Source of the DNA: an uncultured Bdellovibrionales bacterium
GTDB lineage: Bacteria; Patescibacteriota; Minisyncoccia; Moranbacterales; DUUL01
Reading direction: 5' to 3'
NCBI GenBank assembly: GCA_964421125.1
Contig: CAYQVD010000001.1
Span: forward strand, 56,680 to 120,679
DNA: 64,000 nucleotides
Shown here: one piece after another, positions 2,747-54,752 of the stretch
Numbering within the stretch: the first letter of the stretch is position 1
Layout: the number at the start of each line of letters is the position of its first letter
Made by a program: the position numbers and the translations under genes
The notes under the pieces: model-generated
The model's input: only the letters and a program-made list of their open reading frames with translations
Database searches by the model: none
Told to the model about the DNA's origin: nothing

Positions 2747-4411
2747 ATGATCTCAAAAAAATCATTTTCACTTTTCTTTATCGGATTTTCATTGTTATTT
2801 TTCTTATTTGGAACAGTCAATAATACTAATGCTGCAATAATAGGTGAAGATTGTAATGAAGAAAACTCTTGTACAGACGGAACTTATTGCCTTTCTGCAT
2901 ATTGTAGACCTGCATTCAATGGAGGACTCGGAGATGAATGCAATCCAACCGAAGAAATGCCAGCTGGAACAGTTTGTTCTGATGGAATAAGTTTTTGTTA
3001 TGAAGGCAAATGTGCAGAAAAATGTGTTGTTGCTTATGGAAATTTATGTCATACGAATGATCCTTCAATAAGATGTTACCCATCAAAAGAAAATACCCAA
3101 GTTTCAATTTGTAAAACAAAATCATCAATTAATTGGATTGGCGCTCCATGTGGAATTGACATAGGAACTTTTTGTAAAAAAGAAGACCATGATCCCGTTT
3201 CTGGAGAAAAGACCTGCGGACCAGGCCTTGACTTTGCTTGGAGAGGATTTTTTATGTGTAGCCCAACAATAGGAACAGAAACTGAACCAAGTGTTAATCT
3301 CTCATGTTGCAAACCAGCATCGGAGACAGCAAAAGTACCTTGCCCTGATCTTAAATATGGAGCACTTTGTGCTAATAATAATGGATATTGTTATGATGGA
3401 TTGTGTGAACCTGAACCAGGAAAAGAAGTAGGTGCTTTATGCGGAAACGATGGAGGAACTTGCCAAGGAGACCCAGGATGGACTGAAATTTGTCCAGGAA
3501 TGACGACTTGGGATAGTGTTTCAGGAAGAGATTGCGATAAAACTGCATCAGGGCAAGAACTTAATTGTTGCATAGATAACAATTACCTACCTGACAGTAC
3601 TTGTGTTAATAAAACAAATGGTGAATCATGCGGTAATGGTGGTTATTGTTATGATGGAATATGCTCTGAATTCGGACTAGGCACCTTAGATGAGAAATGC
3701 GGAGCTCATGACGGACACTGTGTTATTGGAATAAAAGAGAATAATATTTGGTCATGCCCAGAAAGTGCTCCGCAAAGAGACAATGCGGAAAGAAAATGTG
3801 ATATAGGAAGTGATCCAGATAATAACCCAATTCTTTGTTGTACAATTCCTCCTACTGCTTCTCCTACTCCAACCCCAAACCCAATTAACATATCAGATTT
3901 CAATCCTACATACAAAGCATGTGCAGGAACTCAGCCAAGAGAAGGAATTGTGGGAGGAATGGGAATGTTTAGCGGATCAATTGTCCCTTGTGGAAGAAGT
4001 TGTGATGACCTCGGAACTCCAACCAACGAAATGAAAGAATGCACAATTTGTCATTTCATTCTGATGGGGAAAAGAATTTATGACCTAGTTCTTTCTTTGC
4101 TTATTATTGTTTCAATTGTTATGCTTACAGCCAGTGGAATTCTTTACATGTTTTCTGGAGCCAATCCAGAACTAAATTCTACTGCTAAAGAAATTGTTAC
4201 CAAAACACTAATTGGCTTTGCCTTATTCCTAGGAAGCTGGTTGATAGTCAGCACGATTCTTATTCTCATTTCTTATAATAGTGCCTTCTTGGGAACTGGA
4301 GGAAAATGGTATAATTTCTCTTGTGACACTACTAGCAAATTTCAAGCTAAAGATGACCAAGGGAATCAATCATGGCAAAACCCAAACAACTTAAATATCC
4401 CTGTCAATTAG
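2747..4411 (+). CDS. Secreted Cys-rich repeat protein fused to a C-terminal TrbC/VirB2-like pilin hairpin (two TM helices)
   Basis: Signal peptide followed by repeated GYCYDG(L/I)C Cys-rich modules and a Pro/Thr linker (PTASPTPTPNP). The C-terminal hydrophobic hairpin (LVLSLLIIVSIVMLTASGILYMFSGANPELNSTAKEIV...FALFLGSWLIVSTILILISY) is of the same type as the downstream pilin genes. Confidence 0.6.
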   Translation: MISKKSFSLFFIGFSLLFFLFGTVNNTNAAIIGEDCNEENSCTDGTYCLSAYCRPAFNGGLGDECNPTEEMPAGTVCSDGISFCYEGKCAEKCVVAYGNLCHTNDPSIRCYPSKENTQVSICKTKSSINWIGAPCGIDIGTFCKKEDHDPVSGEKTCGPGLDFAWRGFFMCSPTIGTETEPSVNLSCCKPASETAKVPCPDLKYGALCANNNGYCYDGLCEPEPGKEVGALCGNDGGTCQGDPGWTEICPGMTTWDSVSGRDCDKTASGQELNCCIDNNYLPDSTCVNKTNGESCGNGGYCYDGICSEFGLGTLDEKCGAHDGHCVIGIKENNIWSCPESAPQRDNAERKCDIGSDPDNNPILCCTIPPTASPTPTPNPINISDFNPTYKACAGTQPREGIVGGMGMFSGSIVPCGRSCDDLGTPTNEMKECTICHFILMGKRIYDLVLSLLIIVSIVMLTASGILYMFSGANPELNSTAKEIVTKTLIGFALFLGSWLIVSTILILISYNSAFLGTGGKWYNFSCDTTSKFQAKDDQGNQSWQNPNNLNIPVN

Positions 4412-4433
4412 AATTTTTTCTCAATAAAAAAAT

Positions 4434-5039
4434 ATGAAATTAAAAACAATTTATTACAGCTTGCTATTAATTTTTTTTTCACTCAGTGCAGGAATCACAA
4501 ATGCCGCTGGTTCTAATTACAACTATACAAACCCTCTCAAAGTGGACAGTATGACAGCCTGGCTTTCCGGAATTCTCGCTGGCCTTCAAGGAGTTGTCGG
4601 AATTATTGCAGTCATGATGCTGGTACTAGCAGGAATAATTTATATCGCCGCTGGAATAAATTCAAACTGGATGATACTAGCAAAAAACATGGCGACTTGG
4701 GCAATCATTGGCTTCGCTATTGTTGTTGCCGTTCCTTCATTACTAAAAGAAATTTACGACATCTTCAATACTAACCCTACAACTTCTCCTGATATCATTA
4801 AAGAAGCCAATTTTTTTAGAGACATCTTATTAAATGTTCTGCGATTCCTTCTGACAATCATTGGAGTTTTTGCTCTTATTAGTTTTGTGATTGCTGGATT
4901 CAAATACCTCACATCTGGTGGAGACCAAGGTAGAGCTGATAGTGCAAAAAAAATGGTTTTCTATTCCATCATCGCTGTTCTAGTATCAGGATCTGGAGTT
5001 ATCATCATTCGTCAAATCTTCAAAATCCTTGAAGGATAA
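4434..5039 (+). CDS. Pilin-like protein with two tandem TrbC/VirB2-type hairpin domains
   Basis: Signal peptide followed by two copies of the [TM]-[loop with AAG/GG and basic/acidic residues]-[TM] unit. Similar to the single-domain pilins downstream. Confidence 0.55.
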   Translation: MKLKTIYYSLLLIFFSLSAGITNAAGSNYNYTNPLKVDSMTAWLSGILAGLQGVVGIIAVMMLVLAGIIYIAAGINSNWMILAKNMATWAIIGFAIVVAVPSLLKEIYDIFNTNPTTSPDIIKEANFFRDILLNVLRFLLTIIGVFALISFVIAGFKYLTSGGDQGRADSAKKMVFYSIIAVLVSGSGVIIIRQIFKILEG

Positions 5040-5053
5040 TTTAAAATAAATTT

Positions 5054-5662
5054 ATGAATAAAAAAATACTTTACGGGGGAATAATCTTTTTTGTTTTGTT
5101 TTTTGTAACAAACATTTCCATCGCAGCCGATTACATTGTTGAGTTTGGTAGTCCCTTCGGTATTTCAACAGTAGAAAACTTTTTCCTAACAATCATTGAA
5201 AATCTTAAAAACTTGGTTGTCTTAATTGCAATTCTTTTTATTGTAATTGGTGGACTTTTCTATATCACCGCCGGAGAATCTAGTGAAAGAATCACTACTG
5301 CTAAAAAAATATGGACAGGCTCAATTATCGGCCTTTCACTTGCCCTGCTTGCTCCAACTTTTCTTAGAGAAATCCAACATACTTTTCTTAAAGATAAAAT
5401 TCTTAAAACCGATATCAATCAACTACTTAGCTTAAGTGCTATCATCACAAACGTCCTGACGTTCCTGTTGTCAATTGTTGGAATTCTAGCTATAATAAGT
5501 TTAGTGATAAGTGGACTGACTCTGATATTCTCTTTTGGAGACACTTCAAAAGCAGAGAAAGCAAAAGAAATGATCAAATGGTCTCTTGTTGGACTAGCTC
5601 TTTCCGGAGCATCAGTTATCATCGTAAGACAAATTGCTGATTTCATTCTGACAAAACCATAA
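5054..5662 (+). CDS. Pilin-like protein with two tandem TrbC/VirB2-type hairpin domains (paralog of 4434..5039)
   Basis: Same architecture as 4434..5039: ...IVIGGLFYITAGESSERITTAKKIW... and ...ISGLTLIFSFGDTSKAEKAKEMIKWSLVG... Confidence 0.55.
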   Translation: MNKKILYGGIIFFVLFFVTNISIAADYIVEFGSPFGISTVENFFLTIIENLKNLVVLIAILFIVIGGLFYITAGESSERITTAKKIWTGSIIGLSLALLAPTFLREIQHTFLKDKILKTDINQLLSLSAIITNVLTFLLSIVGILAIISLVISGLTLIFSFGDTSKAEKAKEMIKWSLVGLALSGASVIIVRQIADFILTKP

Positions 5663-5721
5663 TCAACTCCATAAGAAAAGTTCAAAATAAATAAAAAATA
5701 AACTAGAAAGGCGGTGAAAAA

Positions 5722-6090
5722 ATGAGTATTACAACTAAAAGAATTTTATCCTTTGTTTTCCTATTTGCTATTATGGGACTACCATTGCTAGCAGGAGCAC
5801 AACTTAACGTTGACTCCACTGAAATGGCTAACTCACGTCTAAGCAATATCACATTCTATGATCTACTAGTAACTGTCATGAATTGGTTATTAATAGTTAT
5901 AACTGTTCTAGCTGTTATTGGTTTTATTGTATCTGGAGTATATTTTATCACTGCCGCTGGAACCGGAAAAGTAGAAGACGCAAAACATTGGTTAACTTAT
6001 TCAATTATCGGAATAATCGTAGCCTTAATTGGATTCATCATCGTTAGACTTATCGATAGTCTTGTCGCTGGAAAGGCTTCATACACATAA
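5722..6090 (+). CDS. TrbC/VirB2-like (T4SS-type) pilin-family protein
   Basis: 122 aa: signal peptide, then a two-TM hairpin ...NWLLIVITVLAVIGFIVSGVYFITAAGTGKVEDAKHWLTYSIIGIIVALIGFIIV. Close paralog of the next gene. Confidence 0.65.
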   Translation: MSITTKRILSFVFLFAIMGLPLLAGAQLNVDSTEMANSRLSNITFYDLLVTVMNWLLIVITVLAVIGFIVSGVYFITAAGTGKVEDAKHWLTYSIIGIIVALIGFIIVRLIDSLVAGKASYT

Positions 6091-6105
6091 GTCTTCAATT
6101 GTTTT

Positions 6106-6158
6106 ATAAAACAAAACAAAACAGGTCCACTCGGACTTGTTTTGTTTTGTTTTTTTAA
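6106..6158 (+). terminator. Rho-independent terminator (about 19-bp stem, one mismatch, loop ACTC, followed by a T-run)
   Basis: aaacaaaacaaaacaggtcc-actc-ggacttgttttgttttgttt followed by ttttt. Confidence 0.7.
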
Positions 6159-6200
6159 TTATAATAAGAAAAACGATGTAAAAAATAAAAAACAATAAAA

Positions 6201-6578
6201 ATGAACATCTTCACAAAAAAAATTATATCCTTTATTTTTTTAATTTCAATTATGAGCATTCCTATGATTGCCATAGGTTTTGACACAGATTTACAAGAAC
6301 TTAAAGATTCGAAGCTAAGTAGTAAAAGTATTCAGGCAATAATTATAGTCACCATGAATTGGTTGCTAACAATAGTAACCGTCCTAGCTGTTATCGGATT
6401 TATTATATCTGGAGTATATTTTATTACTGCCCAAGGAAGCGGGGAAATAGAAGAAGCAAAGAGCTGGATGATTTATTCAATTATTGGAATCGTTGTGGCA
6501 CTTATTGGATATATCATCATCAACCTTGTTAACAGCCTACTCCTAGGAAATGCCACTCAAACAATAGTAATCCCTTAG
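6201..6578 (+). CDS. TrbC/VirB2-like pilin-family protein (close paralog of 5722..6090)
   Basis: ...TMNWLLTIVTVLAVIGFIISGVYFITAQGSGEIEEAKSWMIYSIIGIVVALIGYIII, near-identical to the hairpin of the upstream gene. Confidence 0.65.
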   Translation: MNIFTKKIISFIFLISIMSIPMIAIGFDTDLQELKDSKLSSKSIQAIIIVTMNWLLTIVTVLAVIGFIISGVYFITAQGSGEIEEAKSWMIYSIIGIVVALIGYIIINLVNSLLLGNATQTIVIP

Positions 6579-6669
6579 ACTCCTTAATAAACAGTCATAC
6601 TTAAATAAATCCAAATAAATAATTGTTTTGTTTTATGAAAAATGATAGAATATCAATAATAGAGAAAAA

Positions 6670-7011
6670 ATGATAAAGACAATTAAATACAATTTAATAT
6701 TAGCTGTTCTTTGGTCAAATAAAACTCTTGCGCAATTTATTGAACCAGAGAATAAAACAACTTCTTCGACAACTAAATCATCTTCCATAGATATTAATTT
6801 TCTCATAGAAGTTGTCACCCTCCTCTTTGCTTTTGTTTTTATTATCTCTATTATTGGATTTCTTTTTTCTGGACTCAAGTTCATGACCGCTGGAGGGTCA
6901 GAATCAGTTCTTGAAAGCGCTCATAAAACTTGGATAGCTTCACTAACAGGATTAATTGTTTCCTTATTAGGATACATAATGATATACATATTAAAAATGA
7001 TTTTTCTTTAA
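6670..7011 (+). CDS. TrbC/VirB2-like pilin-family protein
   Basis: 113 aa: signal peptide and a two-TM hairpin with GLKFMTAGGSESVLESAHKTW in the loop. Confidence 0.5.
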   Translation: MIKTIKYNLILAVLWSNKTLAQFIEPENKTTSSTTKSSSIDINFLIEVVTLLFAFVFIISIIGFLFSGLKFMTAGGSESVLESAHKTWIASLTGLIVSLLGYIMIYILKMIFL

Positions 7012-7026
7012 ACATAAATAAAAAAC

Positions 7027-7422
7027 ATGAAAAATAAAAAAATAATTTTATTGTCTCTTATCACCATCTTTTTAACATTAGCCTCAACTGCTCTTGCACA
7101 AGAGATTAATGCAGGTGTTATCAGTGGTATTAAGTCAGTTGGTTTTATTGCTGCTGTAGGAGCCCTTATAGCTTTCGTCCCTTTTGCATCAGCTTCTTCT
7201 GTCCTAGGAACACTACTAAACTGGCTACTTTCAATTTTCACTTTCATTGCTGTTATTTCTTTTATTATAACTGGAATAATGTTTATATTTTCTGGTTCAA
7301 ACCCCGAACTAAAAACACAAGCAAAATCTGGCCTAGTTTATTCAATTATTGGAATTGCTATTGGAATTTCAGGCTGGATAATCCTTGGTACAATAGCTAA
7401 TCTTATGGGAGGTTCTATATAA
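7027..7422 (+). CDS. TrbC/VirB2-like pilin-family protein
   Basis: Signal peptide (ASTALAQE cleavage-like site) followed by ...LLNWLLSIFTFIAVISFIITGIMFIFSGSNPELKTQAKSGLVYSIIGIAIGISGWIIL. Confidence 0.6.
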   Translation: MKNKKIILLSLITIFLTLASTALAQEINAGVISGIKSVGFIAAVGALIAFVPFASASSVLGTLLNWLLSIFTFIAVISFIITGIMFIFSGSNPELKTQAKSGLVYSIIGIAIGISGWIILGTIANLMGGSI

Positions 7423-7436
7423 ATAAAATCTTAAAA

Positions 7437-7838
7437 ATGAAACTATTTAAAAACATTGCAACCCCTCTTTTATCAACAATCACTTTTTTCGCAACAACAC
7501 TTTATGTAAAAGCAAGTTGGACGGCAGGAATGGAAGTAATCAATAACCCCCTTGAAGTAACTCTTCCTGGAGGATCCTTTGCTCCAGGCCCTATTTGGAT
7601 TTTACTATCACTCTTTCTATGGTTATTAAAAATATTTATGATACTAGGAGTAATTTCCTTTGTAATAGCTGGAATTGTATTTCTAGTTTCTACTGTTAAT
7701 CCAGAATTAAGGGAAAGAGCTAAGAACATTGTCACTTACTCAATCATTGCAATCATTATTGGATTCTCTGGAATTCTTATTCTAGTAACTATCCTCTCCA
7801 TTCTTACCGGTGCATCAGGAATAGATTACTTATTATAA
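7437..7838 (+). CDS. TrbC/VirB2-like pilin-family protein
   Basis: ...LWLLKIFMILGVISFVIAGIVFLVSTVNPELRERAKNIVTYSIIAIIIGFSGILIL. The NPEL motif is shared with 7027..7422 and 2747..4411. Confidence 0.55.
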   Translation: MKLFKNIATPLLSTITFFATTLYVKASWTAGMEVINNPLEVTLPGGSFAPGPIWILLSLFLWLLKIFMILGVISFVIAGIVFLVSTVNPELRERAKNIVTYSIIAIIIGFSGILILVTILSILTGASGIDYLL

Positions 7839-7853
7839 ATAAAAATAAATAAT

Positions 7854-8411
7854 ATGAAAATCGGATCACTACGTTTCTTGTTAATTATAGGAATTATTTT
7901 TACTTCTTTTGCAATTTTTTCAGGCAATGCTCTTGCTCAAGTTTGCATTGGAGATAATGGAAGCGATGGAGCTTGTGAATTCGGATGGTGCAGTGATGGG
8001 GAGAATATAGGAGATTCTGGAGATGATTGTGATATGGGGGATGTTTGCTGTGGGACAATTGGAGGAGGTAATACTGGAGGTAATACTGGAGCAACATCTG
8101 GTGTTCCTGTTGATTTAATCCCTGAAGGTCTTGGATTACCTGATCCCGGATTAACGAGTGGAGATCAAAGTGGAATTGAAGTGATACTCCTTGCTCTCTT
8201 GAATTGGCTCTTAATCATTTTCCTTATTGTATCTCTGATTGCTTTTATCATAACAGGGTTAATGTATCTTCTCGCAATGGGAAACTCCAGAACTGTCTTA
8301 ATGGAAAATGCAAAGAATTATTTCTATTATGCGGTGATAGCCCTGTTAGTGACTGGCTCAGGACTAATTATCGTTAATGTTATCAACAACTTTCTCAACG
8401 CAAGCCTTTAA
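7854..8411 (+). CDS. Pilin-family protein with an N-terminal Cys/Gly/Asp-rich module
   Basis: Signal peptide, then CIGDNGSDGACEFGWCSDGENIGDSGDDCDMGDVCCGT, a Gly/Thr linker and a pilin hairpin ...LLNWLLIIFLIVSLIAFIITGLMYLLAMGNSRTVLMENAKNYFYYAVIALLV. Confidence 0.6.
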   Translation: MKIGSLRFLLIIGIIFTSFAIFSGNALAQVCIGDNGSDGACEFGWCSDGENIGDSGDDCDMGDVCCGTIGGGNTGGNTGATSGVPVDLIPEGLGLPDPGLTSGDQSGIEVILLALLNWLLIIFLIVSLIAFIITGLMYLLAMGNSRTVLMENAKNYFYYAVIALLVTGSGLIIVNVINNFLNASL

Positions 8412-9541: not shown

Positions 9542-9620
9542 TCTGATGTGCAGATAATGTATTTTCGAGGATCTCGCCATTTTGATGGCGTTGCGAGAAA
9601 ATACATTATCTGCACATCAG
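9542..9620. repeat. Long inverted repeat (about 23-bp perfect stem, about 30-nt spacer containing a second 6-bp hairpin) between the uvrA stop and the NTase-like gene start
   Basis: tgatgtgcagataatgtattttc ... gaaaatacattatctgcacatca. The spacer contains cgccat-tttg-atggcg. Confidence 0.6.
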
Positions 9621-12525: not shown

Positions 12526-12688
12526 GAATTATACATGATTTTTTTCTATTAGTAAACCCTCAAGCATACCTTCATAAAAAGAATTAAAAAATAATTAAAA
12601 CGCATTATATAAATTTACACATCTTAAACAACAAAAAATCCTCACACCTGGCAAGGACTTTTGTATAGAAAATCTATTAAAGTAAAAA

Positions 12689-12931
12689 CTATTTTTTCTT
12701 TTTAGTAGCTTTTCTTTTTTTTGTCTTCTTAGCTGTCTTCTTTTTTGGAGTAGCTTTTCTTTTTTTTGTCTTCTTAGCTGTCTTCTTTTTTGGAGCAGCT
12801 TTTTTCTTGGTAACTTTTTTAGTAGCTTTCTTTTTAGAAGTTTTTTTAGCTACTCTTTTTTTTGGAGCAGCTTTTCTTTTTGTTGTTTTTTTAGCAGTTT
12901 TTTTCTTCTTCTTAGTTGGCATAAATTTCAC
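12689..12931 (-). CDS. Lys/Ala-rich histone H1-like basic protein (KKxAKKTxKRKA repeats)
   Basis: 80-aa ORF that is almost entirely K/A/T. Strong RBS (gaaaggaaggtgaaatttATG). Internal DNA repeats of about 33 bp encode the peptide repeats. Resembles bacterial Hc1/H1-like nucleoid proteins. Confidence 0.55.
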   Translation of the reverse strand: MKFMPTKKKKKTAKKTTKRKAAPKKRVAKKTSKKKATKKVTKKKAAPKKKTAKKTKKRKATPKKKTAKKTKKRKATKKKK

Positions 12932-13032
12932 CTTCCTTTCTATTTTAATTTTTTATTTTATTTTTTTAAGCATAACTGAATTATAAAGCAAAAATTAAAT
13001 TGTGCAAACATTTTTTAAAATACAAAACCCCG

Positions 13033-18887: not shown

Positions 18888-18994
18888 ATTTTTATTTTAT
18901 AAGTAATTTTATTTAATTTATTCTAACACATTTTGTTTAATTTAGAAAATTATAATTTTTGATAGTATTCTTAATTCAAAATAATGTATTATGG

Positions 18995-19132
18995 AAATTC
19001 AGCATATTTATTTTTTGAACGTAATGGCTTTGATAAGAATAACAACGATATTAAGTAAAATACAGTCTTTAGCTACACTAATATTTCAAAGCAATGATAA
19101 ATTCAGTGAAAAAAATAAATATGCTGAATTTC
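18995..19132 (+). repeat. Intergenic conserved element, copy A (upstream of trpS), bounded by a perfect 20-bp terminal inverted repeat
   Basis: 5' arm gaaattcagcatatttattt pairs with 3' arm aaataaatatgctgaatttc. Internal conserved motifs tttgaacgtaatg and gataaattcagtgaaaaaaataaatat are shared with the copies at 26468 and 27750. Confidence 0.7.
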
Positions 19133-19215
19133 AAACAAATAAAATTAAAATTATTGCTAAAACAATATTAATCGATTAATATATAATAAGGAATAATAAC
19201 TTATTTAAAAAATTT

Positions 19216-20917: not shown

Positions 20918-23900
20918 ATGGTTATGAACAAGAAAAAGACAATTATTGATGCTGGGGTTGGACACATTAATATTTATTTTTTTGATACCCAAAATAAAAA
21001 AACAGAGAATGTTTTAATTACTGGTAATGATGACCTCCGAATACTTTTTCAAAAATATGATATTTTTGAAAAAATTAAAGACACCGATGTTTTTATAACT
21101 GGAAAACTAGCCAATATTGTTAAAAAAATTGTTAAAAAAGGAAATATTATTTTGCCAGTAGCAGCTCTCTGGGAAGCTGGAAAAAAATTGATGCATCAAA
21201 ATGAAAACAAAGACATTGAAGAGCTAGCTATTATTGACCTATCTGCTTCTGGATATTTACTAATTGGGATTGATAAAAAAGGAAATCTAAAAAACGATAC
21301 TCTAATAACTAATCCTCACTGTGGAGCTGGTAGTGGTGTAAACTTAGACCGAGTGTTACAAAAATTAGCAATCAAAAGAGATGGCGTAGATAAACTACTT
21401 TCGCAATATCTTGGAAAAAATAATAAAGAAGAAAGAGAAAAAATCAACATCAGAGCTGATCGTTGCGGTGTTTTTAGCTCTTCTGCTACTATATCTGACA
21501 AAAATCAAGGAATTCCTTTATCCTTTGCCCTAGCTACCACCATAAAATCAGAAGTGATAAAAACTTGCACAAAACTTCCAGAAAGATTTGAAAAGGTATA
21601 TTTGACAGGACGTGTTTTCAATTGGCAATTTGCCAGAGAATGCGCTCAGGACTATTTGAAAAAGAAAGGAACAAAAATAATTGAGCTTGATAAAGATAAT
21701 GATCTTTCCATTACTGGAACACTTGAACTTTCCAAAAAAGTGAAAAATGAAAATTTTAACAACGGAGAAACTGAATTAAAAAAAGAAGAAAAATTAGAAG
21801 AATTTCCCTCTTTTAAGTCAATTAAAAACAAACACGAAAAATCTAATTTATATAAAAGATTAGAAAGTGAACATATATCAGAATTGCAAGCTGACAAATT
21901 TGAAACAACCCCAGTGTATCTAGGCTTAGATGTAGGCTCAACCATGGCAAAGCTGGTAATATGCGATCAAAATGAAAATATTCTTCTTATAGACTCTTAT
22001 GGTAATTCTGGAGATACTATTGATACTGTAAAATCAATTTTCAACAGCTTAAAAAATAAAAACGTTCACAAGCTTCAAATATTAAACATTGGAATTACTG
22101 GAAGCGCCAGATATCAAGTTGAACAATCAATAACACAAATTTATCCTCAATTAAAAGATAAGGTTTCAGTTTTAGTAGAAAATTATGCTCATGCTCGAGG
22201 ATCAATTGATTATGCTCGAAATCATATTAAAACACTGAAAGAAAAAGGCATAAAAGATATTAATAACAAGTTTTGTATTCTAGTTGACATAGGAGGAGAG
22301 GACACTAAATTATCAACAATTACTTTAGAAAAAGGAGAGCTTTTTGATAATGTCATGAATGTAAAATGTTCAGCTGGAACTGGCAGTCTAATGGACACCC
22401 TCACTTCTCTGTTTGGAATGGACAATGTTGAAGAAGCTTGTAATCTAGCCTTTAATGCTGAAAAATCATATGCCATAAATGCTACTTGTGCAGTATTTTT
22501 AATGGAAAATGCTAGAAAATTACAGGCTCAAGGATATCCAAAAAATGAAATTCTAGCTTCAGCTAATTGGGCAATTGTAGAAAACATGGCTAGAAGCCTT
22601 TGGGGTCAAATTGATTTACCAAAAAATGCTATCACACTATTGCATGGTCAAACTATGCTCTCTGAACCTCTTCCTCTTGCTGTTTGTAATAGACTACAAG
22701 AATTTACCAATTCAAAAAATTACTGCCTAGTCCCTCCTTATCCAGGACATCGAGCTTGTATTGGACTAATAAAATCTCTGTCTAAAGATAATACAAATGA
22801 AACAAAAGAAATAATTTTACAAAGTTTTATTGAAAAAAAATTCTCAAAAAAAGTTATAGTTTGCAATGGCGTAGCCTGTGGAGATCGTAATGCACGTTGC
22901 AATAGAACTTTATTAAGTTGTACTAATGATAATAATGAAAAATTTAGTTTCACTCTCGGTGGTTGTACAGCTGTAAATGAACTTCTTAATAAAAAAGTAA
23001 AGCCTAATAAAAAACCAATTGATTCCTATAAAGAATTATGGAATTTCATTGATTCTCATCATCCAACAACAGAAGATAAAAATAGATTAATAATTCCAAG
23101 GAGCTTTGCCGTAAGTGAGTGGGCATATTTTTTATCTCAAATTTTTGAAGATATTGGAATAAAAACACATGTAGACAATGTGCAAGAAAAAGATATTCTA
23201 AATGCACAACCACTTTTCAATATCGACACTTGCGCCCCTCATATTGGAGCAGTTGGTCAATATAGACGATTAGCGAATGAACCACACGGAATGATTTTAG
23301 CCCCTCAAATTACCTTTTTACCTACTAATAAAAAAAGCCTAGGAAGAACCTGTACTCTTAATCAAGGAGGAATAGCCACAGCAAAAAACTTAGCTACCCT
23401 AAAAAACAAAAATTCTAAATTCCATTTATTTAGCATGAATCTTAGCGAACTAGATTCTAAAAAAATCAGCAACAACATTTTTCATCAATTGAAACCAGTT
23501 CTTAATTACTACAAAAAAAATATTAGTCGTAAAAGCTTTGAAAAATCAGTAACCAACGCACTTAAACTTAACGATAAACTCAAAAATGCAGTAGCAGATA
23601 AAGCAGCCATCTTTGCAGAAAAAGCTCTAGCAGATAACAAACAAATCGCGTTAGTCGTTGGACGTGAATACATCCTAAATCCAGGAATATACGACAGCCA
23701 CGCTGGAAGACTACTACGAGATAAGGGAATGCTAGTTTTACCTTCCTATGTTTTTGACGTGGAACTAGATGATGATTTCAAACACATCTACTGGAAAAAT
23801 CCTCACACAATCACAAGTATTGTTAAATATGTTTCCCAAAACAACTTAAGCAAAAAAATAAAAAATTTGAAACTTAAAAAAGTTTTTGAAAAAATTGAAT

Positions 23901-25555
23901 CAAATAATAATAATCAATACCCTATTGTTCAAGTATCAACTTTTCGCTGTGGACCAGACAGTGCTACTTCTCATCTTATTTCAGAAATAACAAAAAAAAG
24001 ACCGTTCCTGTTGATTCAATCTGACGCTATCATTAAAGAATTGGCTCATCTGGAAAACAGAGTTAATACCCATATAAAACAAATAGAACAAGACCTTCAC
24101 TCAAAACTTTTAGATGAAGAAAATGAAGATTTTGAAATTAAAATCTTGGAAAACTTTCAAAATACTCAAGATATTGATAAGGAAACGGATGTAATTTATT
24201 TTCCGACACTTGGAGACAATAGGACAATTTCCTCTGTCGTTAGATCCATTGGATTTACTTGTATTGATAATTTTAATGACGAAAGCTATAATCTCTCAGA
24301 CCTTATAAAAGAAGGTCGAAAATATGCCGGCGACTCCATTTGCGCTCCACTCGCAGCTGTCTTTGGAGATACCATTAGAGCAGTTGAAGATTTTAAAAAA
24401 AGAAAAGACAATAATGATCCTTTGTTTATAAATAAAAAACGAGTTTTAGTCTTTAATAACAAAGGAACTGGTCCATGCAGACAAGGTCAATATAGTGAAG
24501 TACACAAATTACTTGCTCATCAAAAATATTCAAACTCAGAAGATCAAAATCTTCTTAAATTCCTAGTTAGCGATGAAAGAAAGGGTTATAATTTCGGTGT
24601 TGACAAGGCAATTCTAATTCGAGCATTCAAAGGCGGAATACTTCAAGGTGTTCTTCATCAAATATTATTTAATTTTGGTTCAAGTTGCAATAACTTAAAA
24701 GAATACAAAGTATTTAAAGAAGAATTTAAATATCTTAAAAAGAAAATATTCAAAATTCAAGAAAATACAAAACCAAATGAAAAATTCCTAGAAAAGACAA
24801 ATCTTATTCAAAAAATACCACTGATTAATGAAATTATTAAATATTATGGTTATGGCCTTAATAATAAAAATATAGAAAAAGAACTTTCAAAATTTACCGA
24901 TAAATGGAAAAGGCAAATAAGAATAAAAACAAAAGATATTATCAAAATCCACATTGAAGGAGAAGCCTATTTACGTATAGCTCAAAGTGAAGAAGTTTTT
25001 AATAATCTATTATCAACTCTCGGTTTTAATAAATTTAACCTTGAATACACTCCGGTTTGGTCCTATCTTGAATACATTCTTTTAAATCAAATAAATATTG
25101 AAAAAGAAAAAATCAGCAATGACAAAACATTCAAAAACATCTTTAATTCCAGTAAAAAAATCATGAAACTAAATCTTGCTCATTTTTTCATAAGAAATAT
25201 CTTAGCAAAACCACTTTACAAAGCAGTGAAAATAAAAGTTCCTGAATCAATGAAGAAAATTTTAGAATTATCAAAAAAAATAATCCCAACGCTACAACCA
25301 GCAGGAGAGCTAACTCCCTACGTAGGAGAAGCTATTCATAAACTTGAAAATGACACAGACCTACTCCTTAATATTGCTCCGGAAGGCTGTATGGTTTCTT
25401 CTATGGGAGAAGTTTTAACTCCGAAAATATTAAACTATACTAAAAACAAAGGAGGAATTCAAAATTTATTCTCTCAAGACGGAGAAATTAACGATGAAAT
25501 ATTAACGACTGCACTCTTGAAAATACTCGGACCTGAAAAATTCTATAAAAAATAA
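20918..25555 (+). CDS. Giant CoA-substrate-specific enzyme activase-like protein: two BcrAD/BadFG (HgdC-type) ATPase domains fused to a 2-hydroxyacyl-CoA dehydratase D-component-like (DUF2229/HgdB-like) domain
   Basis: 1545 aa. N-terminal region has NPHCGAGSGVNLD; second ATPase has LGLDVGSTMAKLV, DIGGEDTKL and KCSAGTGSLMD (both resemble the activase CAAGTG cluster-Cys motif). Downstream FRCGPDS and CGDRNARC are typical of dehydratase-like partner domains. Confidence 0.55.
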   Translation: MVMNKKKTIIDAGVGHINIYFFDTQNKKTENVLITGNDDLRILFQKYDIFEKIKDTDVFITGKLANIVKKIVKKGNIILPVAALWEAGKKLMHQNENKDIEELAIIDLSASGYLLIGIDKKGNLKNDTLITNPHCGAGSGVNLDRVLQKLAIKRDGVDKLLSQYLGKNNKEEREKINIRADRCGVFSSSATISDKNQGIPLSFALATTIKSEVIKTCTKLPERFEKVYLTGRVFNWQFARECAQDYLKKKGTKIIELDKDNDLSITGTLELSKKVKNENFNNGETELKKEEKLEEFPSFKSIKNKHEKSNLYKRLESEHISELQADKFETTPVYLGLDVGSTMAKLVICDQNENILLIDSYGNSGDTIDTVKSIFNSLKNKNVHKLQILNIGITGSARYQVEQSITQIYPQLKDKVSVLVENYAHARGSIDYARNHIKTLKEKGIKDINNKFCILVDIGGEDTKLSTITLEKGELFDNVMNVKCSAGTGSLMDTLTSLFGMDNVEEACNLAFNAEKSYAINATCAVFLMENARKLQAQGYPKNEILASANWAIVENMARSLWGQIDLPKNAITLLHGQTMLSEPLPLAVCNRLQEFTNSKNYCLVPPYPGHRACIGLIKSLSKDNTNETKEIILQSFIEKKFSKKVIVCNGVACGDRNARCNRTLLSCTNDNNEKFSFTLGGCTAVNELLNKKVKPNKKPIDSYKELWNFIDSHHPTTEDKNRLIIPRSFAVSEWAYFLSQIFEDIGIKTHVDNVQEKDILNAQPLFNIDTCAPHIGAVGQYRRLANEPHGMILAPQITFLPTNKKSLGRTCTLNQGGIATAKNLATLKNKNSKFHLFSMNLSELDSKKISNNIFHQLKPVLNYYKKNISRKSFEKSVTNALKLNDKLKNAVADKAAIFAEKALADNKQIALVVGREYILNPGIYDSHAGRLLRDKGMLVLPSYVFDVELDDDFKHIYWKNPHTITSIVKYVSQNNLSKKIKNLKLKKVFEKIESNNNNQYPIVQVSTFRCGPDSATSHLISEITKKRPFLLIQSDAIIKELAHLENRVNTHIKQIEQDLHSKLLDEENEDFEIKILENFQNTQDIDKETDVIYFPTLGDNRTISSVVRSIGFTCIDNFNDESYNLSDLIKEGRKYAGDSICAPLAAVFGDTIRAVEDFKKRKDNNDPLFINKKRVLVFNNKGTGPCRQGQYSEVHKLLAHQKYSNSEDQNLLKFLVSDERKGYNFGVDKAILIRAFKGGILQGVLHQILFNFGSSCNNLKEYKVFKEEFKYLKKKIFKIQENTKPNEKFLEKTNLIQKIPLINEIIKYYGYGLNNKNIEKELSKFTDKWKRQIRIKTKDIIKIHIEGEAYLRIAQSEEVFNNLLSTLGFNKFNLEYTPVWSYLEYILLNQINIEKEKISNDKTFKNIFNSSKKIMKLNLAHFFIRNILAKPLYKAVKIKVPESMKKILELSKKIIPTLQPAGELTPYVGEAIHKLENDTDLLLNIAPEGCMVSSMGEVLTPKILNYTKNKGGIQNLFSQDGEINDEILTTALLKILGPEKFYKK

Positions 25556-26453: not shown

Positions 26454-26467
26454 AACAATCCAGAAAA

Positions 26468-26601
26468 GATTTAATATATTTATTTTTTGAACACAATGGT
26501 TTCGAGAAGAAAGATAAATTTAGCCAGCAAATTAACGCCTTTAATCATTTAAGGATTAAAAGCAAAGATAAATTCAGTGAAAAAAATGAATATATTAAAT
26601 C
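26468..26601 (+). repeat. Intergenic conserved element, copy B (upstream of tsaD), closed by a 19-bp inverted repeat (18/19)
   Basis: gatttaatatatttatttt ... aaaatgaatatattaaatc. Internal ttgaacacaatgg and gataaattcagtgaaaaaaatgaatat. Confidence 0.65.
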
Positions 26602-26631
26602 TTAACACTCTTGATTTACGGTAATAACTAT

Positions 26632-27732: not shown

Positions 27733-27749
27733 TTCTAAATAACGAAAGG

Positions 27750-27844
27750 GTTGATATGTTTATTTTTTGAACGTAATGATATCAATTTAGATGACTCCAA
27801 AAAAAGGAAAATAAATTCAGTGAAAAAAATAAACATATCAACTC
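27750..27844 (+). repeat. Intergenic conserved element, copy C (upstream of miaA), closed by a perfect 19-bp inverted repeat
   Basis: gttgatatgtttatttttt ... aaaaaataaacatatcaac. Internal gaacgtaatg and aataaattcagtgaaaaaaataaacat. Confidence 0.7.
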
Positions 27845-27869
27845 TTTATAAATCCTTCATTTATTAAAT

Positions 27870-32819: not shown

Positions 32820-33101
32820 GTTTATTCCTTAATTAATTATCACCTACTTGGCTTTCAAAGTCTGGCTAGACTTTTAACTCTCGGAAAAATCTCTCATATT
32901 AAATGAAAGACAGGAAATCCGGCCACCAAATATGTTTATTTAATATGAAGCCAATGACTTCATATCAACCCTTAATTTAGCATGTATTTTTTTGAATGTA
33001 AAGACCGTAATTAGTTGTTAGTTGTTAATTTAAAACAAAAAACTACCCTTTTTATTTAAAATACGCTAAAATTAAGATATTAATCTTTATAAATTAAATA
33101 A

Positions 33102-48041: not shown

Positions 48042-51000
48042 TCAACTTTTCAACCAAAAATTGATTTCTATACCATCAATTTTTACTTGTTTTTCAATGT
48101 CAGCTTCTGGTTTTTGATTGCCAGCTTTTCCAAGCTTGATTGCTAATACTTCCTTGGAAATTTCTGTCTTAAACTTTTCAAAAATTTCTTCCCCACCTTT
48201 ATAAAAGACCTCTATCCGATCATCAATCTGAAAATCAGCTTCTTTTCGAGCTTGTTGAATGTGACGAATAAGCTCTCGCATCTGACCTTCGATTTTGAGT
48301 TCAGGGGTAATTGTTGTAATAACTCCTAAAACTGCTATTTCAAAAAAATCAACAGTGGGAGTGTCTCCTTCATTAGATGGCTCACTTTTAACCCCCAAAG
48401 AAATTGCGACATCATTAGACTCTTTAATTTCATTAACCCTCGTAATGAGCTTAACATTTAACTCTTCTTTTATGATGTCGTTAATTTCATTGTTTAATTT
48501 TTCAATAATTTGAACTTCTGAAAGTGGTTGCCTGACTTTTATTTTCTGAGATGCTCGCACCTCTAACCCCCTCTTAACCAATTCTCGCGCAGAAGCCATC
48601 TCCTCGTTCAATTCCTTGTTAATCATTTTCTTATCAGCAATTGGGAAATCACAAAGGTGGACAGATTCTCCCTCTGTTAAATTTCTATAAATTTCTTCGG
48701 AGATGAAAGGAGCGAATGGTGCTAAAACCTTTGAAAATTCAGTCAGAACTGTCCAAAGCGTTTGATAGGCATCATTCTTGTCGTCATCACTTTCACTTTT
48801 CCAAAACCTCTTTCTACTTCTCCTGATATACCAATTAGAAAGATTGTCAACAAATTGTGGGAAAAATCTAGTTGCTTTATTCAACTCATATTTCTCCATC
48901 GCTGAATCAACATCTCGAATCAACATATTTAATTCTGATAAAATCCATTTATCCAATAAGTTTTTTGGTTCAACTTTTTCTCCTGGAGTCCAGTTATCAA
49001 TGCTGGCATAAAGAGTGAAAAATGAATAAGAATTTTGAATCATTCGAAACATCCCTCGAGAAAATTCAGAAAGCTCTTTTTCTGAAAAATTCAAATTCTG
49101 AGCACGAACAACTGGCGAATGAAGAAGATAAAATCTCAAAATATCTGCTCCGTATTTTTCAATCATCTCGGTTGGATCTGGATAATTCTGAAGTTTTTTT
49201 GCCATTTTCTTTCCATCTTCCGCCAAAACAATTCCATTCACAATTACATTTTGAAAGGCTTTTTTGTCAAAAATCCCAACAGCAATAGCGTGAAGATAAT
49301 AAAACCATGCCCTGGTTTGATCAATCCCTTCAGCAATAAACTCGGCTGGGAAACTTTTTTCAAATTTTTCTTTATTTTCAAACGGATAATGTACCTGAGC
49401 ATATGGCATTGAACCACTGTCAAACCAGGTATCCAATACATCTGGAATTCTTTTCATTTCTTTTTTACATTTTTCACAAGGAAAGGTAATCTCATCAACT
49501 ACATGCTTGTGAAGATCTTTAACTTTCTTACCACTCAAGTCTTCAAGCTCCTTCGCACTTCCCAAGACTTTCATTTCTCCACATTCACACTTCCAAATCG
49601 GCATTACAGATGCCCAATAACGCTGACGACTGATTGACCAATCTCTCGCTCCTTCAAGCCAGTTACCCCAACGACCTTCTTTAATATTATCAGGTTCCCA
49701 ATTAAGCTCCTTAGCATGTTCTAGCATTTTTTCTTTAATTTTTGTAATCGCCACAAACCAAGAAGATGTCGCATAATTTATCAAAGGCGTATCACACCTC
49801 CAACAATGCGGATAGCTATGTTCGTATTTCTTTTTTGAAAAAAGAAGGCTATTGTGTGCAAGATATTTAATAATTTCAATATCGGTTTTCTGATGATCAT
49901 CGCGAGGCTTCACTGAAAGTCCTGCAAAATCTTTAGCTTCAGCTTTAATCGCTCCATTCATTCCAACGTGCTGAATAAAGGGTAAGTTATTTTCTTTTCC
50001 AAAATTCATATCATCTTCACCAAAAGCAGGAGCGATATGAACAACTCCAGTCCCTTCTTCAGTCGTCACAAAATCTCCTGCATAAATCTTCCAACCATTT
50101 TCTTTATTTTCTAAACTATCTTGACTTGAATAATAATCAAAAAGAGGCTTATAATTCAGACCAATCAATTCTTTCCCTTTAATTTCAATTACAAAATCAT
50201 AATTCTTATCATTAAAAACCTCATTAATTCTATCTTTTGCTAAAATATAAAAATCATTTTCATGTTTTACTAAAAAATATTTAACATCTTTGCCAATAGC
50301 CAATGCAACATTTCCAATCAATGTCCATGGAGTAGTTGTCCAAGCCAAAACATAAACTCGTGGAGGACTTTTTTCTGTTTCCTCATCCGCTCTTTTTGCC
50401 TTATCCTTAAGATAAGATTTTATAGCATTTTCCGTCGGCTCGTAATCTATTTCGGGCAAATTATCAAAAGAAAACCATTCAATCTTTTCTGTTTCATCAG
50501 GCACTAAATTTTCTGGTTCACCTTTTATCCTGGTTAGATAACAAACTGTATCAAAAAGTCGTCCTTCTATAAACTCTGGATTGTGAATAATTGGCTCTGC
50601 TAATTCAATATTAACCCCTAGTTCTTCTTTTATTTCTCGTTCAAGTGCTTGACGAAAAGTCTCTCCTTCATCAACTTTACCCCCAGGCATAGCCCAAGTT
50701 TCTCGACGTCTGTCCTCTTTACGACGAATAAGTAATATCTCATCTTTATCATTAAAGATAAGCGCACCTACCCCTCGGCCAGTTTTACCCTTACAATATT
50801 TTAATTCAAATTTAGATATTACAGAAAGATCCTTAATATCTTTATATCCTTCTGAAATTTCAGTTTGCGAAAGAGTTGTTTCACATCGAGGACAAATATG
50901 CATCGACCGATATCCCTCATAAATCAGATCTTTTTCATAAAGCTTTTTGAACACCCACCAAACTGATTCCATATATTCAAGGTCCATAGTTTTATAACTA

Positions 51001-54530: not shown

Positions 54531-54752
54531 TTTTAAATACTTTTAAAATACTTCCTATAAATTAACTCTGATTAATTTTTTTATAAAAATTTAGGGCGTA
54601 GCTACTTGATACTCTAGTTGAGTATTTCTTAAATTTATCTTTTTATATCTAGATAAGCCTTGAAAGTCAAGCGGAGTGGTTCCTGAATTTTTTAAAAAAA
54701 TTGATTAGAGTTAATAATTTCAATTTGAATTACTCTAAGACAATGTTCCTTC

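What the first reader, a model, noticed from the sequence alone, without database searches (positions are those of the whole stretch)
18995..19132. Conserved intergenic element with covarying terminal inverted repeats, copy A upstream of trpS
A 138-bp element is bounded by a perfect 20-bp inverted repeat (gaaattcagcatatttattt / aaataaatatgctgaatttc). The same internal motifs (TTGAAC[GA][TC]AATG near the 5' end, GATAAATTCAGTGAAAAAAAT(A/G)AA near the 3' end) recur at 26468..26601 and 27750..27844. In each copy the outer half of the inverted repeat is different but perfectly self-complementary (CAGCAT/ATGCTG versus TAATAT/ATATTA versus GTTGATATG/CATATCAAC). That is compensatory variation, the signature of a conserved long-range helix (RNA or cruciform) rather than of fixed transposon TIRs. 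All three full copies sit 35-100 nt upstream of the start codons of tRNA-related genes (trpS, tsaD, miaA) in sense orientation. The central part is variable in length (45-85 nt).
Basis: seen in the sequence. Interest (0 to 1): 0.75.

Follow-up and report, generated by a model that had tools for sequence, protein, structure and literature searches.

The report
Covarying long-stem intergenic hairpin repeats
An uncultivated Patescibacteria (CPR) genome carries at least 11 dispersed copies of a 95-145-nt hairpin whose 20-26-bp stem differs in every copy but stays paired around an invariant core; this is a new family of structured intergenic repeats, not a leader RNA specific to tRNA-related genes.

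Summary
Three copies (18994-19132, 26466-26603, 27745-27847, all + strand) share invariant motifs next to a 23-24-bp terminal helix whose outer part differs between copies but remains paired.

A metagenome scan found 8 more copies on other contigs, probably from the same genome. Two relatives (80% TsaD identity) carry a copy between lgt and tsaD with a completely different stem. Across 13 copies, 14 of 28 pairs show compensatory changes and 97% of cells are paired. Wobble pairs favour the + (sense) strand. No Rfam family matches.

The 5'-UTR riboswitch reading does not hold:
- Four copies lie antisense between co-directional genes.
- At two to three loci a terminator and/or a promoter-like site separates the element from the downstream gene.
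- More distant relatives have a tight lgt-tsaD-miaA operon with no element.

Orientation instead follows the replication-type strand asymmetry in 8 of 9 loci. Neighbours are modestly enriched in aminoacyl-tRNA synthetase genes.

Best reading: a lineage-specific palindromic repeat family of the CREE/ERIC/RPE kind, kept under in-place selection as a single-strand hairpin that a protein recognises. RNA is the more likely form. Its function is inferred, not shown.

The parts
18994..19132 (+). Copy A, long form (139 nt). It lies between a divergent 355-aa gene of unknown function and trpS.
   Evidence: CM 130.8 bits. The 23-bp helix is perfect.
18994..19016 (+). Copy A 5' arm (GAAATTCAGCATATTTATTTTTT). 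It pairs with 19110-19132.
19017..19026 (+). Copy A invariant 5' core, GAACGTAATG. G19017/A19018 face A19109/G19108 as a tandem G.A. A19019-U19107 and C19020-G19106 pair. G19021/U19022 face A19105/C19104 as a 2x2 loop. AAU 19023-19025 pairs with AUU 19101-19103.
   Evidence: These positions are invariant in 13 of 13 copies, except that the two loop bases read AC in B and L169 and GC in L132.
19097..19109 (+). Copy A invariant 3' core, ATAAATTCAGTGA.
19110..19132 (+). Copy A 3' arm (AAAAAATAAATATGCTGAATTTC).
26466..26603 (+). Copy B, long form (138 nt), between lgt and tsaD. Arms are 26466-26488 and 26581-26603. Cores are 26489-26498 and 26568-26580. It has one U.G wobble on the + strand.
   Evidence: (120.7 bits).
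27745..27847 (+). Copy C, short form (103 nt), between tsaD and miaA. Arms are 27745-27768 and 27824-27847 (24 bp, one G.U). Cores are 27769-27778 and 27811-27823.
   Evidence: (94 bits).

Best explanation
This is a lineage-restricted family of palindromic intergenic repeats, the same general kind as Neisseria Correia/CREE, enterobacterial ERIC and Rickettsia RPE elements. There are at least 11 copies in what is probably one genome, a Moranbacteria-like Patescibacteria. Copies come in a short form (about 95-105 nt) and a long form (about 133-144 nt).

Shown: each copy is a single long hairpin. It has a 20-26-bp stem that is free to change sequence provided it stays paired. The stem closes on an invariant irregular helix: tandem G.A/A.G, then A-U and C-G, then a 2x2 loop, then AAU/AUU.

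Inferred:
- The whole hairpin, stem included, is the repeated unit, because the outer stems still show residual similarity to one another.
- Copies are old paralogues. Their interiors have diverged heavily, yet stems stay 97% paired and the core stays identical, so each copy is under selection where it sits rather than decaying.
- The selected object is the folded + (sense) strand.
- Most probably this is RNA, made by read-through or divergent transcription, with the invariant GA-rich loop plus a stem of fixed length serving as the recognition site of a protein. An RNase III-type processing, stability or insulation site is the most economical guess, as shown for CREE.

It is not a ligand- or tRNA-sensing leader of trpS, tsaD or miaA.
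For: - Repeat family: 3 window copies, 8 on contigs of metagenome Ga0307992 carrying non-redundant housekeeping genes, and 2 in relatives.
- Structure: 14 of 28 pairs have compensatory changes, 97.4% of cells are paired, and 0 of 500 shuffles reach this. The RNAalifold consensus agrees. Folding z-scores are -6 to -7.
- Strand: sense-strand G.T wobbles outnumber A.C 10 to 3 raw. After discounting the frame-shifted end columns of L115 the count is about 9 to 2. This runs against the usual mutational bias expected for the C-rich strand on which the sense strand lies.
- Selection in place: the 20-nt 3' core is identical in all 11 copies of the genome. Cores are kept in the 80%-identity relatives while the stem sequence there is entirely different.
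- Not a leader: context and orientation data.
- Not a known RNA: no Rfam hit at gathering threshold or at E up to 10, apart from chance long-hairpin miRNA precursor models.
- Analogy: CREE has two size classes, a conserved core, inverted repeats that form RNase III substrates in mRNA, and sometimes a promoter between the element and the gene (PMC2649163). Stem-loop repeat families are widespread in bacteria (PMC2267715).
Against: - There are no expression data, so RNA versus single-stranded DNA is undecided.
- Orientation is random with respect to flanking transcription: 4 sense and 4 antisense among copies between co-directional genes. It follows the GC3-skew strand in 8 of 9 loci, which is more typical of a DNA-level process.
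- In L127 and L167 the element sits between a terminator and the next gene's start, so it may be poorly transcribed there.
- No partner protein (RNase III, transposase, Nop/Tas) was identified. None is encoded in the window.
- Stem perfection could partly come from template-switch correction of DNA quasi-palindromes rather than from selection.
- That the nine contigs belong to one genome is inferred, not proven.
Confidence: 0.42

Rival explanations
1. Single-stranded-DNA hairpin element tied to replication. The sense strand folds as DNA and is recognised by a DNA enzyme or protein: a HUH-type or other hairpin-specific recombinase for mobility, or a host factor. Its orientation is set by, or selected relative to, fork direction, as with IS200/IS605 derivatives, REP/RAYT or integron attC sites.
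For: - The sense strand is the C-rich (GC3-skew negative) strand in 8 of 9 loci, whatever the direction of the flanking genes.
- Both copies of a second hairpin family share that orientation.
- Orientation is random relative to transcription.
- Presence among relatives is patchy.
- There are no TSDs.
- G.T wobbles and tandem G.A pairs are also tolerated in DNA hairpins (general knowledge).
Against: - 8 of 9 gives only p about 0.04 two-sided, and it was one of several tests tried.
- The sense strand lies on the presumed leading-strand template, which is the strand less exposed as single strand. This is opposite to IS200/IS605 behaviour.
- No conserved target tetranucleotide flanks the copies.
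- There are no solo ends and no transposase in 532 kb of held sequence.
- No near-identical copies exist, as recent transposition would produce.
Confidence: 0.22
2. One reading: a cis-acting structured 5'-UTR RNA (riboswitch- or T-box-like) controlling tRNA-related genes.
For: - Window copies lie 23-84 nt upstream of trpS, tsaD and miaA in sense.
- The L132 copy is upstream of dus and the L171 copy is 32 nt upstream of a NuoE-like gene.
- Neighbours are enriched in aaRS genes: 4 of 10 independent loci.
- The helix covaries.
Against: - Four copies are antisense to both neighbours.
- Promoter-like sites or a terminator lie between the element and the gene.
- Downstream genes are unrelated in function: dnaX, a TrmB-like regulator, NuoE-like, glycosyltransferases.
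- aaRS neighbours stand in inconsistent geometry.
- The interior has no conserved pocket-like structure.
- There is no T-box or other Rfam match.
- The element is absent from the same operon in relatives.
Confidence: 0.1
3. Dispersed snoRNA-like or tigRNA-like small RNA genes. The long stem would be a processing stem, and the stem-proximal conserved nucleotides would bind a Nop/L7Ae-type protein, as in the stem-loop TIGR-Tas units described in CPR bacteria.
For: - Stem-loop tigRNA units have palindromic stems that diverge between units. Conservation is confined to stem nucleotides next to box C/D, loops are variable or extended, and a CUU sits at the stem base (bioRxiv 10.64898/2026.09.09.750476; PMC12045711).
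- Here the inner 10 bp of the stem and a GA-containing junction are invariant, the outer stem varies, and B, L127 and L132 start AAG... and end ...CTT.
- The host is a CPR bacterium.
Against: - The copies are not in a tandem array, and no Nop/Tas gene lies nearby.
- The 14-nt box C-N9-box D intervals flush with the stems are absent. The segments beside the stems are constant rather than variable spacers.
- The junction lacks the 3-nt bulge of a k-turn (read directly from the sequence).
- No significant matches of the arms or interiors occur elsewhere; 12-15-mer matches are at noise level.
Confidence: 0.07
4. A conserved micro-ORF (...LFFERNG[FIL][EKD]K...) is the selected feature, and the hairpin regulates its translation.
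For: Substitutions in AAT GGY WTY RAR AAG AAR RAY look codon-like, with third-position and conservative changes. In-frame ATG or TTG codons exist within 4-11 codons of the motif in A, C, L115, L116 and L127.
Against: - Six of 13 copies have no canonical in-frame start, and two more have one only far upstream (24 codons or more before the motif).
- Stops fall at very different places, giving C-terminal tails after the motif of 7 to 75 residues.
- The would-be N-terminus is encoded by the covarying arm.
- The C/U changes also fit G-C to G.U exchange.
Confidence: 0.03

Closest known systems
Correia repeat-enclosed elements (CREE/NEMIS) of Neisseria
   Same: Dispersed intergenic element of about 100-155 bp with long inverted repeats around a conserved core. 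Two size classes. Found 5' of many genes, sometimes with the gene's own promoter lying between element and gene. The hairpin forms in mRNA and is an RNase III substrate (PMC2649163).
   Different: CREE termini are conserved in sequence and are flanked by a target duplication, and copy number is in the hundreds. Here the outer stem differs in every copy with compensatory changes, there is no TSD, there are about 11 copies, and no sequence similarity exists. RNase III cleavage has not been tested.
ERIC/IRU, YPAL and other stem-loop repeat families; Rickettsia palindromic elements (RPE)
   Same: Imperfect palindromes of about 70-170 bp in intergenic or transcribed regions. They occur in both orientations, have short and long variants, and are predicted to fold as one long hairpin (PMC2267715). 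RPEs are the analogue in reduced genomes (from my own knowledge).
   Different: There is no sequence relation. Those families keep a family-wide consensus along the whole stem. Here only the inner stem and the junction are fixed, while the remaining roughly 13 bp covary freely.
Stem-loop TIGR-Tas tigRNA units of CPR bacteria
   Same: Same host group. Palindromic stems that diverge between units while the stem nucleotides nearest the functional core are conserved. Variable loops. CUU at the stem base in several copies (bioRxiv 10.64898/2026.09.09.750476).
   Different: Not arrayed next to a tas gene. No box C-9 nt-box D intervals. The regions next to the stem are invariant rather than being spacers. 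The element is 2-3 times longer.
Integron attC sites
   Same: Recognised as a folded single strand. The sequence is free but the palindromic structure is conserved, the central part varies in length, and orientation is linked to replication (from my own knowledge).
   Different: In attC the conserved R''/R' boxes lie at the base of the hairpin and nothing pairs beyond them. Here 23 bp pair outside the conserved core. There is no cassette array or integrase, and the flanking genes are essential housekeeping genes.

Membership tests
Any Rfam 15 family (including T-box, riboswitches, ribozymes, 6S, Y RNA) | Covariance-model score at or above the family's gathering threshold | tested here: not met
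   One search gave only 6 tRNAs in the window., at E up to 10, gave only MIR812, MIR7504 and a snoRNA model at 20-25 bits against gathering scores of 60-83.
T-box leader | Sense position in the 5' UTR of an aaRS or amino-acid gene, with Stem I/specifier and a T-box terminator/antiterminator | tested here: not met
   No RF00230 hit. Copies next to aspS and proS are on the opposite strand, and the cysS copy is downstream of the gene.
Classical MITE | Terminal inverted repeats conserved in sequence among copies | tested here: not met
   Outer stem positions vary with compensation. Only the inner roughly 10 bp are constant.
Classical MITE | Direct target-site duplication flanking each copy | tested here: not met
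   Flanks of 12 copies show no shared or duplicated di- to 10-nucleotide.
Classical MITE | Multi-copy, dispersed, with presence/absence polymorphism between relatives | tested here: met
   At least 11 copies on 9 contigs. Absent or patchy in relatives.
CREE/ERIC-type palindromic intergenic repeats (a functional kind, not a homology family) | Intergenic single long hairpin of about 100-150 nt, both orientations, discrete size classes | tested here: met
CREE/ERIC-type palindromic intergenic repeats | Transcribed, and processed or stabilised through the hairpin (RNase III or RNase E) | not testable with these tools
   No transcriptome or enzymology is available.
TIGR stem-loop tigRNA | Units in an array adjacent to (or inside) a tas gene encoding a Nop domain | tested here: not met
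   Copies are separated by housekeeping genes. No Nop-domain protein appears among about 55 window ORFs or the neighbours of the other copies. The rest of the genome was not seen.
TIGR stem-loop tigRNA | Two box C (CNA) - 9-nt variable spacer - box D (YG) intervals flush with the stems | tested here: not met
   The sequence next to the 5' arm is the invariant GAACGTAATG, and next to the 3' arm the invariant ATAAATTCAGTG. Read against the TIGRFinder rules in bioRxiv 10.64898/2026.09.09.750476.
TIGR stem-loop tigRNA | Variable palindromic stem with a conserved stem-proximal core, and CUU at the stem base | tested here: inconclusive
   The conserved inner stem is met. ...CTT at the 3' end of the stem occurs in B, L127 and L132, and approximately in C and L167, but not in A, L133, L142, L163 or L169.
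Integron attC | Conserved R''(RYYYAAC)/R'(GTTRRRY) boxes at the base of the hairpin, in a cassette array with intI | tested here: not met
   The conserved GAAC...GTGA lies 23 bp inside the stem. There is no array or integrase.
IS200/IS605-derived PATE | Subterminal hairpins at both ends, insertion 3' of a fixed tetra- or pentanucleotide, and a tnpA partner | tested here: not met
   There is a single hairpin spanning the whole element, no conserved flanking tetranucleotide, and no Y1 transposase in the held sequence. A replication-linked orientation bias is present but of the opposite sense.

The most novel reading that the evidence does not exclude
The hairpins are not junk repeats. They would be a host-maintained system of about a dozen strand-specific hairpin signals, set in a fixed orientation relative to replication and preferentially beside translation and replication genes (four aaRS genes, tsaD, miaA, dus, dnaX, rnhA, rnhB). 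A dedicated CPR protein would read them through the invariant GA-rich junction. This could be either a dispersed, array-less relative of snoRNA-like/tigRNA guide or scaffold RNAs, or a new kind of replication-oriented DNA hairpin signal. A second family with the same architecture (window 54561-54715) would then be a parallel class of the same system.
Probability: 0.12. Interest if true: 0.8.

Novelty: new variant of a known kind. Interest (0 to 1): 0.45.

Why it matters
Structured non-coding elements of CPR/Patescibacteria are almost uncharted. This family gives an unusually clean natural covariation data set: 13 copies and 14 compensated pairs. It shows selection for a stem of fixed length but free sequence, joined to an invariant GA-rich junction, which is the signature of a specific protein partner.

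If the replication-linked orientation and the aaRS neighbourhood hold up in complete genomes, the family would point to a new hairpin-reading system in reduced genomes. If they do not, it is still a well-defined new repeat family. That is useful for annotation, because gene callers already turn copy A into a 62-aa ORF. It also serves as a caution against inferring 5'-UTR regulators from a few sense-oriented copies.

Tried and rejected
- **Genome-contig scan.** That scan was wasted.
- **Other collections.** The viral-contig scan and the phage and plasmid BLAST searches returned nothing real.
- **Rfam.** Nothing at gathering threshold or at permissive E-values.
- **More copies in the window.** The CM search found no further full copies in the window or in relatives' contigs. 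It returned one weak possible distant member in a phage-like contig (L139/L161, 28 bits).
- **Promoter inside the element.** TTGAAC as a -35 and TAAATT as a -10 have no partner hexamer at 16-18 nt in any consistent way (read by hand; scans).
- **K-turn, box C/D or sarcin-ricin reading of the junction.** The junction fits only a plain tandem G.A with no 3-nt bulge.
- **Insertion into pre-existing palindromes.** Rejected because the outer stems of different copies still resemble one another, so they belong to the element.
- **Arms or interiors as guides.** Matches of 12-15 nt elsewhere are at noise level.
- **Micro-ORF.** Half the copies have no start codon.
- **Strain variation.** The other assemblies of the locus are identical, so there are no informative SNPs.

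Full report
**1. The observation.** The three elements are present as described. The two conserved motifs occur only in these three places in 64 kb, far above chance. Repeat finding recovers them as families D12, D14 and D16 and as the three longest inverted repeats, I1-I3.

Each copy folds into a 23-24-bp closing helix with z-scores of -6.2 to -6.9. Exact limits are A 18994-19132, B 26466-26603 and C 27745-27847. The downstream genes are indeed TrpS, TsaD and MiaA, and the gene upstream of B is Lgt.

**2. More copies.** TsaD and TrpS homologues place the organism in Patescibacteria, with the nearest named relatives being Moranbacteria-like. A two-motif pattern scanned over metagenome contigs gave 53 stretches. 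Eight of these are true copies with their own long helix, and all lie on contigs of one JGI metagenome, Ga0307992. Those contigs carry non-overlapping housekeeping genes with the same G+C and skew. They therefore probably belong to the same genome as the window, giving at least 11 copies. This is an inference.

Two relatives with 80% TsaD identity (L115, L116) carry a short-form copy between lgt and tsaD. Its stem is entirely different (CAGAAGAAATGATTATTTTT / AAAAATAATCATTTCTTCTG), but it keeps GAACGTAAT and ATTCAGTGAAAAAA. A covariance model found no further full copies in the window or in any held locus. Phage, plasmid and viral collections are negative.

**3. Anatomy.** Aligning 13 copies and consensus folding give the following layout:
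- P1, a stem of 20-26 bp. The inner roughly 10 bp are constant within the genome (TTTATTTTTT/AAAAAAATRAA) and the outer roughly 13 bp are variable.
- An invariant irregular junction, 5'-GAACGUAAU / 5'-AUUCAGUGA. It reads as a tandem G.A/A.G, then A-U and C-G, then a 2x2 loop, then three A-U pairs.
- An interior of about 53 nt (short form: C, L167, L115, L116) or about 86-92 nt (long form). The long form adds the conserved blocks TCTTTAGCYA and AAAGCAA.

Counting pairs shows 14 of 28 with changes on both sides and 48 such cells. 97.4% of cells are paired, against 83% in shuffles (0 of 500 reach it) and 41-53% when the partner column is slid. The outer stems of different copies still resemble one another, for example GAAATTCAGCATAT, GAAATGCAATATAT and AAGATACAATATAT. 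The stem is therefore part of the repeated unit and not derived from the insertion target.

Non-Watson-Crick cells are mostly G.T on the sense strand: 10 against 3 A.C raw, and about 9 against 2 once the shifted end columns of L115 are set aside. Because the sense strand is the C-rich strand, the usual replication-associated mutation bias would be expected to favour A.C instead. The asymmetry therefore points to selection on the folded sense strand. That step is inference.

**4. Context.** Neighbour genes were verified with Pfam.
- Four loci are sense between co-directional genes: B, C, L127 (GtrA-domain protein | DnaX) and L132 (CysS | Dus).
- Four loci are antisense between co-directional genes: L142 (two GT4 glycosyltransferases), L163 (ParB, a small ORF | RNase HI), L167 (RseP | ProS) and L169 (HD protein | RNase HII).
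- Three loci lie in divergent regions: A, L133 (AspS | TrmB-like) and L171 (unknown | NuoE-like).

In L127 a terminator-like hairpin precedes the element and an 11/12 sigma-70 consensus promoter follows it. In L133 a 10/12 promoter-like site follows the element. In L167 the element sits between the rseP terminator hairpin and proS. The 59 nt upstream of trpS in a relative with 74% identity aligns with the stretch between copy A and trpS, including -35/-10-like hexamers. In these cases the element is not obviously part of the downstream mRNA.

A relative at 58% TsaD identity has lgt-tsaD-miaA with 35- and 9-nt spacers and no element. L117 (81%) lacks copy B, L115 lacks copy C, and L174 (72% TrpS) shows at most a decayed trace upstream of trpS. 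There is no TSD and no conserved flanking tetranucleotide.

**5. Two unexpected regularities.**

(a) Third-codon-position GC skew of flanking genes depends strongly on strand. It is +0.35 to +0.66 for genes opposite to the element and -0.17 to -0.41 for genes co-oriented with it. The element's sense strand is the C-rich strand in 8 of 9 loci, with L171 the exception. My calculation gives two-sided p of about 0.04, and this was one of several tests tried.

(b) Four of 10 independent loci abut an aaRS gene (trpS, cysS, aspS, proS), and three more neighbouring genes modify tRNA (tsaD, miaA, dus). With about 3.5-5% of genes being aaRS, my binomial estimate is p of about 0.004 overall and about 0.015 for the 8 loci found after the hypothesis was stated. 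The geometry is inconsistent, however, and ileS in the window has no copy.

**6. Interpretation.** Three facts need explaining together:
- interiors have diverged heavily;
- stems are almost perfectly compensated;
- the mismatched junction is invariant, even in relatives where neutral DNA should be randomised.

Selection on each copy where it sits explains these best. Neutral decay of a selfish insert does not, and pure DNA quasi-palindrome correction would tend to erase the conserved mismatches.

The strand-specific wobble pattern indicates a folded single strand. I favour RNA recognised by a protein, with a stem of about 23 bp plus a GA-rich junction as the recognition site. An RNase III-type processing, stability or insulation site as in CREE (PMC2649163) is the most economical reading. 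My confidence is only about 0.4, because orientation ignores transcription and seems to follow replication. That keeps a DNA-level reading alive at about 0.2.

The riboswitch or leader model is down-weighted to about 0.1. The stem-loop TIGR-Tas parallel (PMC12045711; bioRxiv 10.64898/2026.09.09.750476) is striking in principle: it is in CPR, has variable palindromic stems with a conserved stem-proximal core, and sometimes has CUU at the base. It nevertheless fails the array, tas-adjacency and box C-N9-box D tests. A micro-ORF is unlikely.

**7. Novelty.** I found no Rfam family and no sequence relative in phage, plasmid or viral collections. My limited full-text searches found no description of it. 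It belongs to a known kind, the palindromic intergenic repeats. It differs in having a freely covarying stem around a fixed junction, no TSD, low copy number, a possible replication-linked orientation and an aaRS neighbourhood. I class it as a new variant of a known kind, of moderate interest.

Noticed in passing
window 54561-54715 (+); L163 1369-1528 (-): A second hairpin-repeat family with the same architecture. It has a 22-26-bp covarying terminal stem ending in T7/A7, which continues into roughly 20 more paired bases. The conserved cores are AAAAATTTAGGGCGTAGC... and ...AAGCGGAGTGGTTCCTGAATTTTTT. It lies antisense between PMT-like and GT2 glycosyltransferase genes. Both copies have the same orientation as family 1 on their contigs. 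There is no Rfam match and no hit in viral contigs.
   Followed up: partly
window 9543-9620: A perfect 24-bp inverted repeat (CTGATGTGCAGATAATGTATTTTC / GAAAATACATTATCTGCACATCAG) around a 30-nt loop that itself contains a GC-rich mini-hairpin. It lies between a 333-aa gene of unknown function and uvrA, both on the - strand.
   Followed up: no
window about 32977-33068 (+): A possible decayed family-1 copy in the divergent region next to rpsB. TTTAGCATGTATTTTTTTGAATGTAAAG resembles the 5' arm plus core, and a partly complementary AAAATACGCTAAA lies about 60 nt downstream. The 3' core is missing and the CM does not detect it.
   Followed up: partly
whole window and loci L127-L171: Very strong strand asymmetry at third codon positions: GC3 skew of about +0.4 to +0.6 on one strand and -0.2 to -0.4 on the other. 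Coding capacity in the window is nearly equal on the two strands, about 27.7 kb against 26.5 kb, so there is little gene-strand bias.
   Followed up: partly
L173 about 165-205 (trpS of a relative with 74% identity): The TrpS orthologue is 396 aa instead of 347. An in-frame GC-rich palindromic insertion (GCCCGCCTCGACTCGCGAAGACGACTCGTCGACGCGAGGCGGG) sits in an otherwise AT-rich gene. This is reminiscent of Rickettsia-type palindromic elements inside coding regions.
   Followed up: no
window 48042-51437 (-): The isoleucyl-type class I tRNA synthetase (1131 aa) carries a NUDIX domain inserted at residues 219-331.
   Followed up: no
window 20918-25555 (+): A 1545-aa fusion of a BadF/BcrA-type ATPase domain with a DUF2229 CoA-enzyme activase domain lies between the 162-aa gene and lgt. 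In relative L115 these two neighbours are adjacent, so the large gene is absent there.
   Followed up: no
window 2747-8411 (+): A cluster of paralogous small membrane proteins with T4SS-pilin (TrbC/VirB2-like) domains, repeated in tandem (repeat families D4, D7, D8).
   Followed up: no
window 12654-12952 (-): Tandem 45-nt repeats inside an 80-aa ORF on the - strand. Read from the DNA, the product should be very Lys/Ala-rich (repeat family D1).
   Followed up: no
window 18991-19179 (+): Gene callers in public assemblies annotate a 62-aa ORF that is simply copy A read through. It is probably a false gene.
   Followed up: yes
L139 82-180 (+) / L161 9030-9128 (-): A possible distant relative of the element in two other metagenomes, in a phage- or plasmid-like context. 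It reads TTTGAAAATATTTTTTT-GAACATAATGA...TTTCAGTG-AAAAAAATATCTTTAAA, with a 16-bp stem containing one mismatch. The CM gives 28 bits, E 2.5e-4, for the core only.
   Followed up: partly
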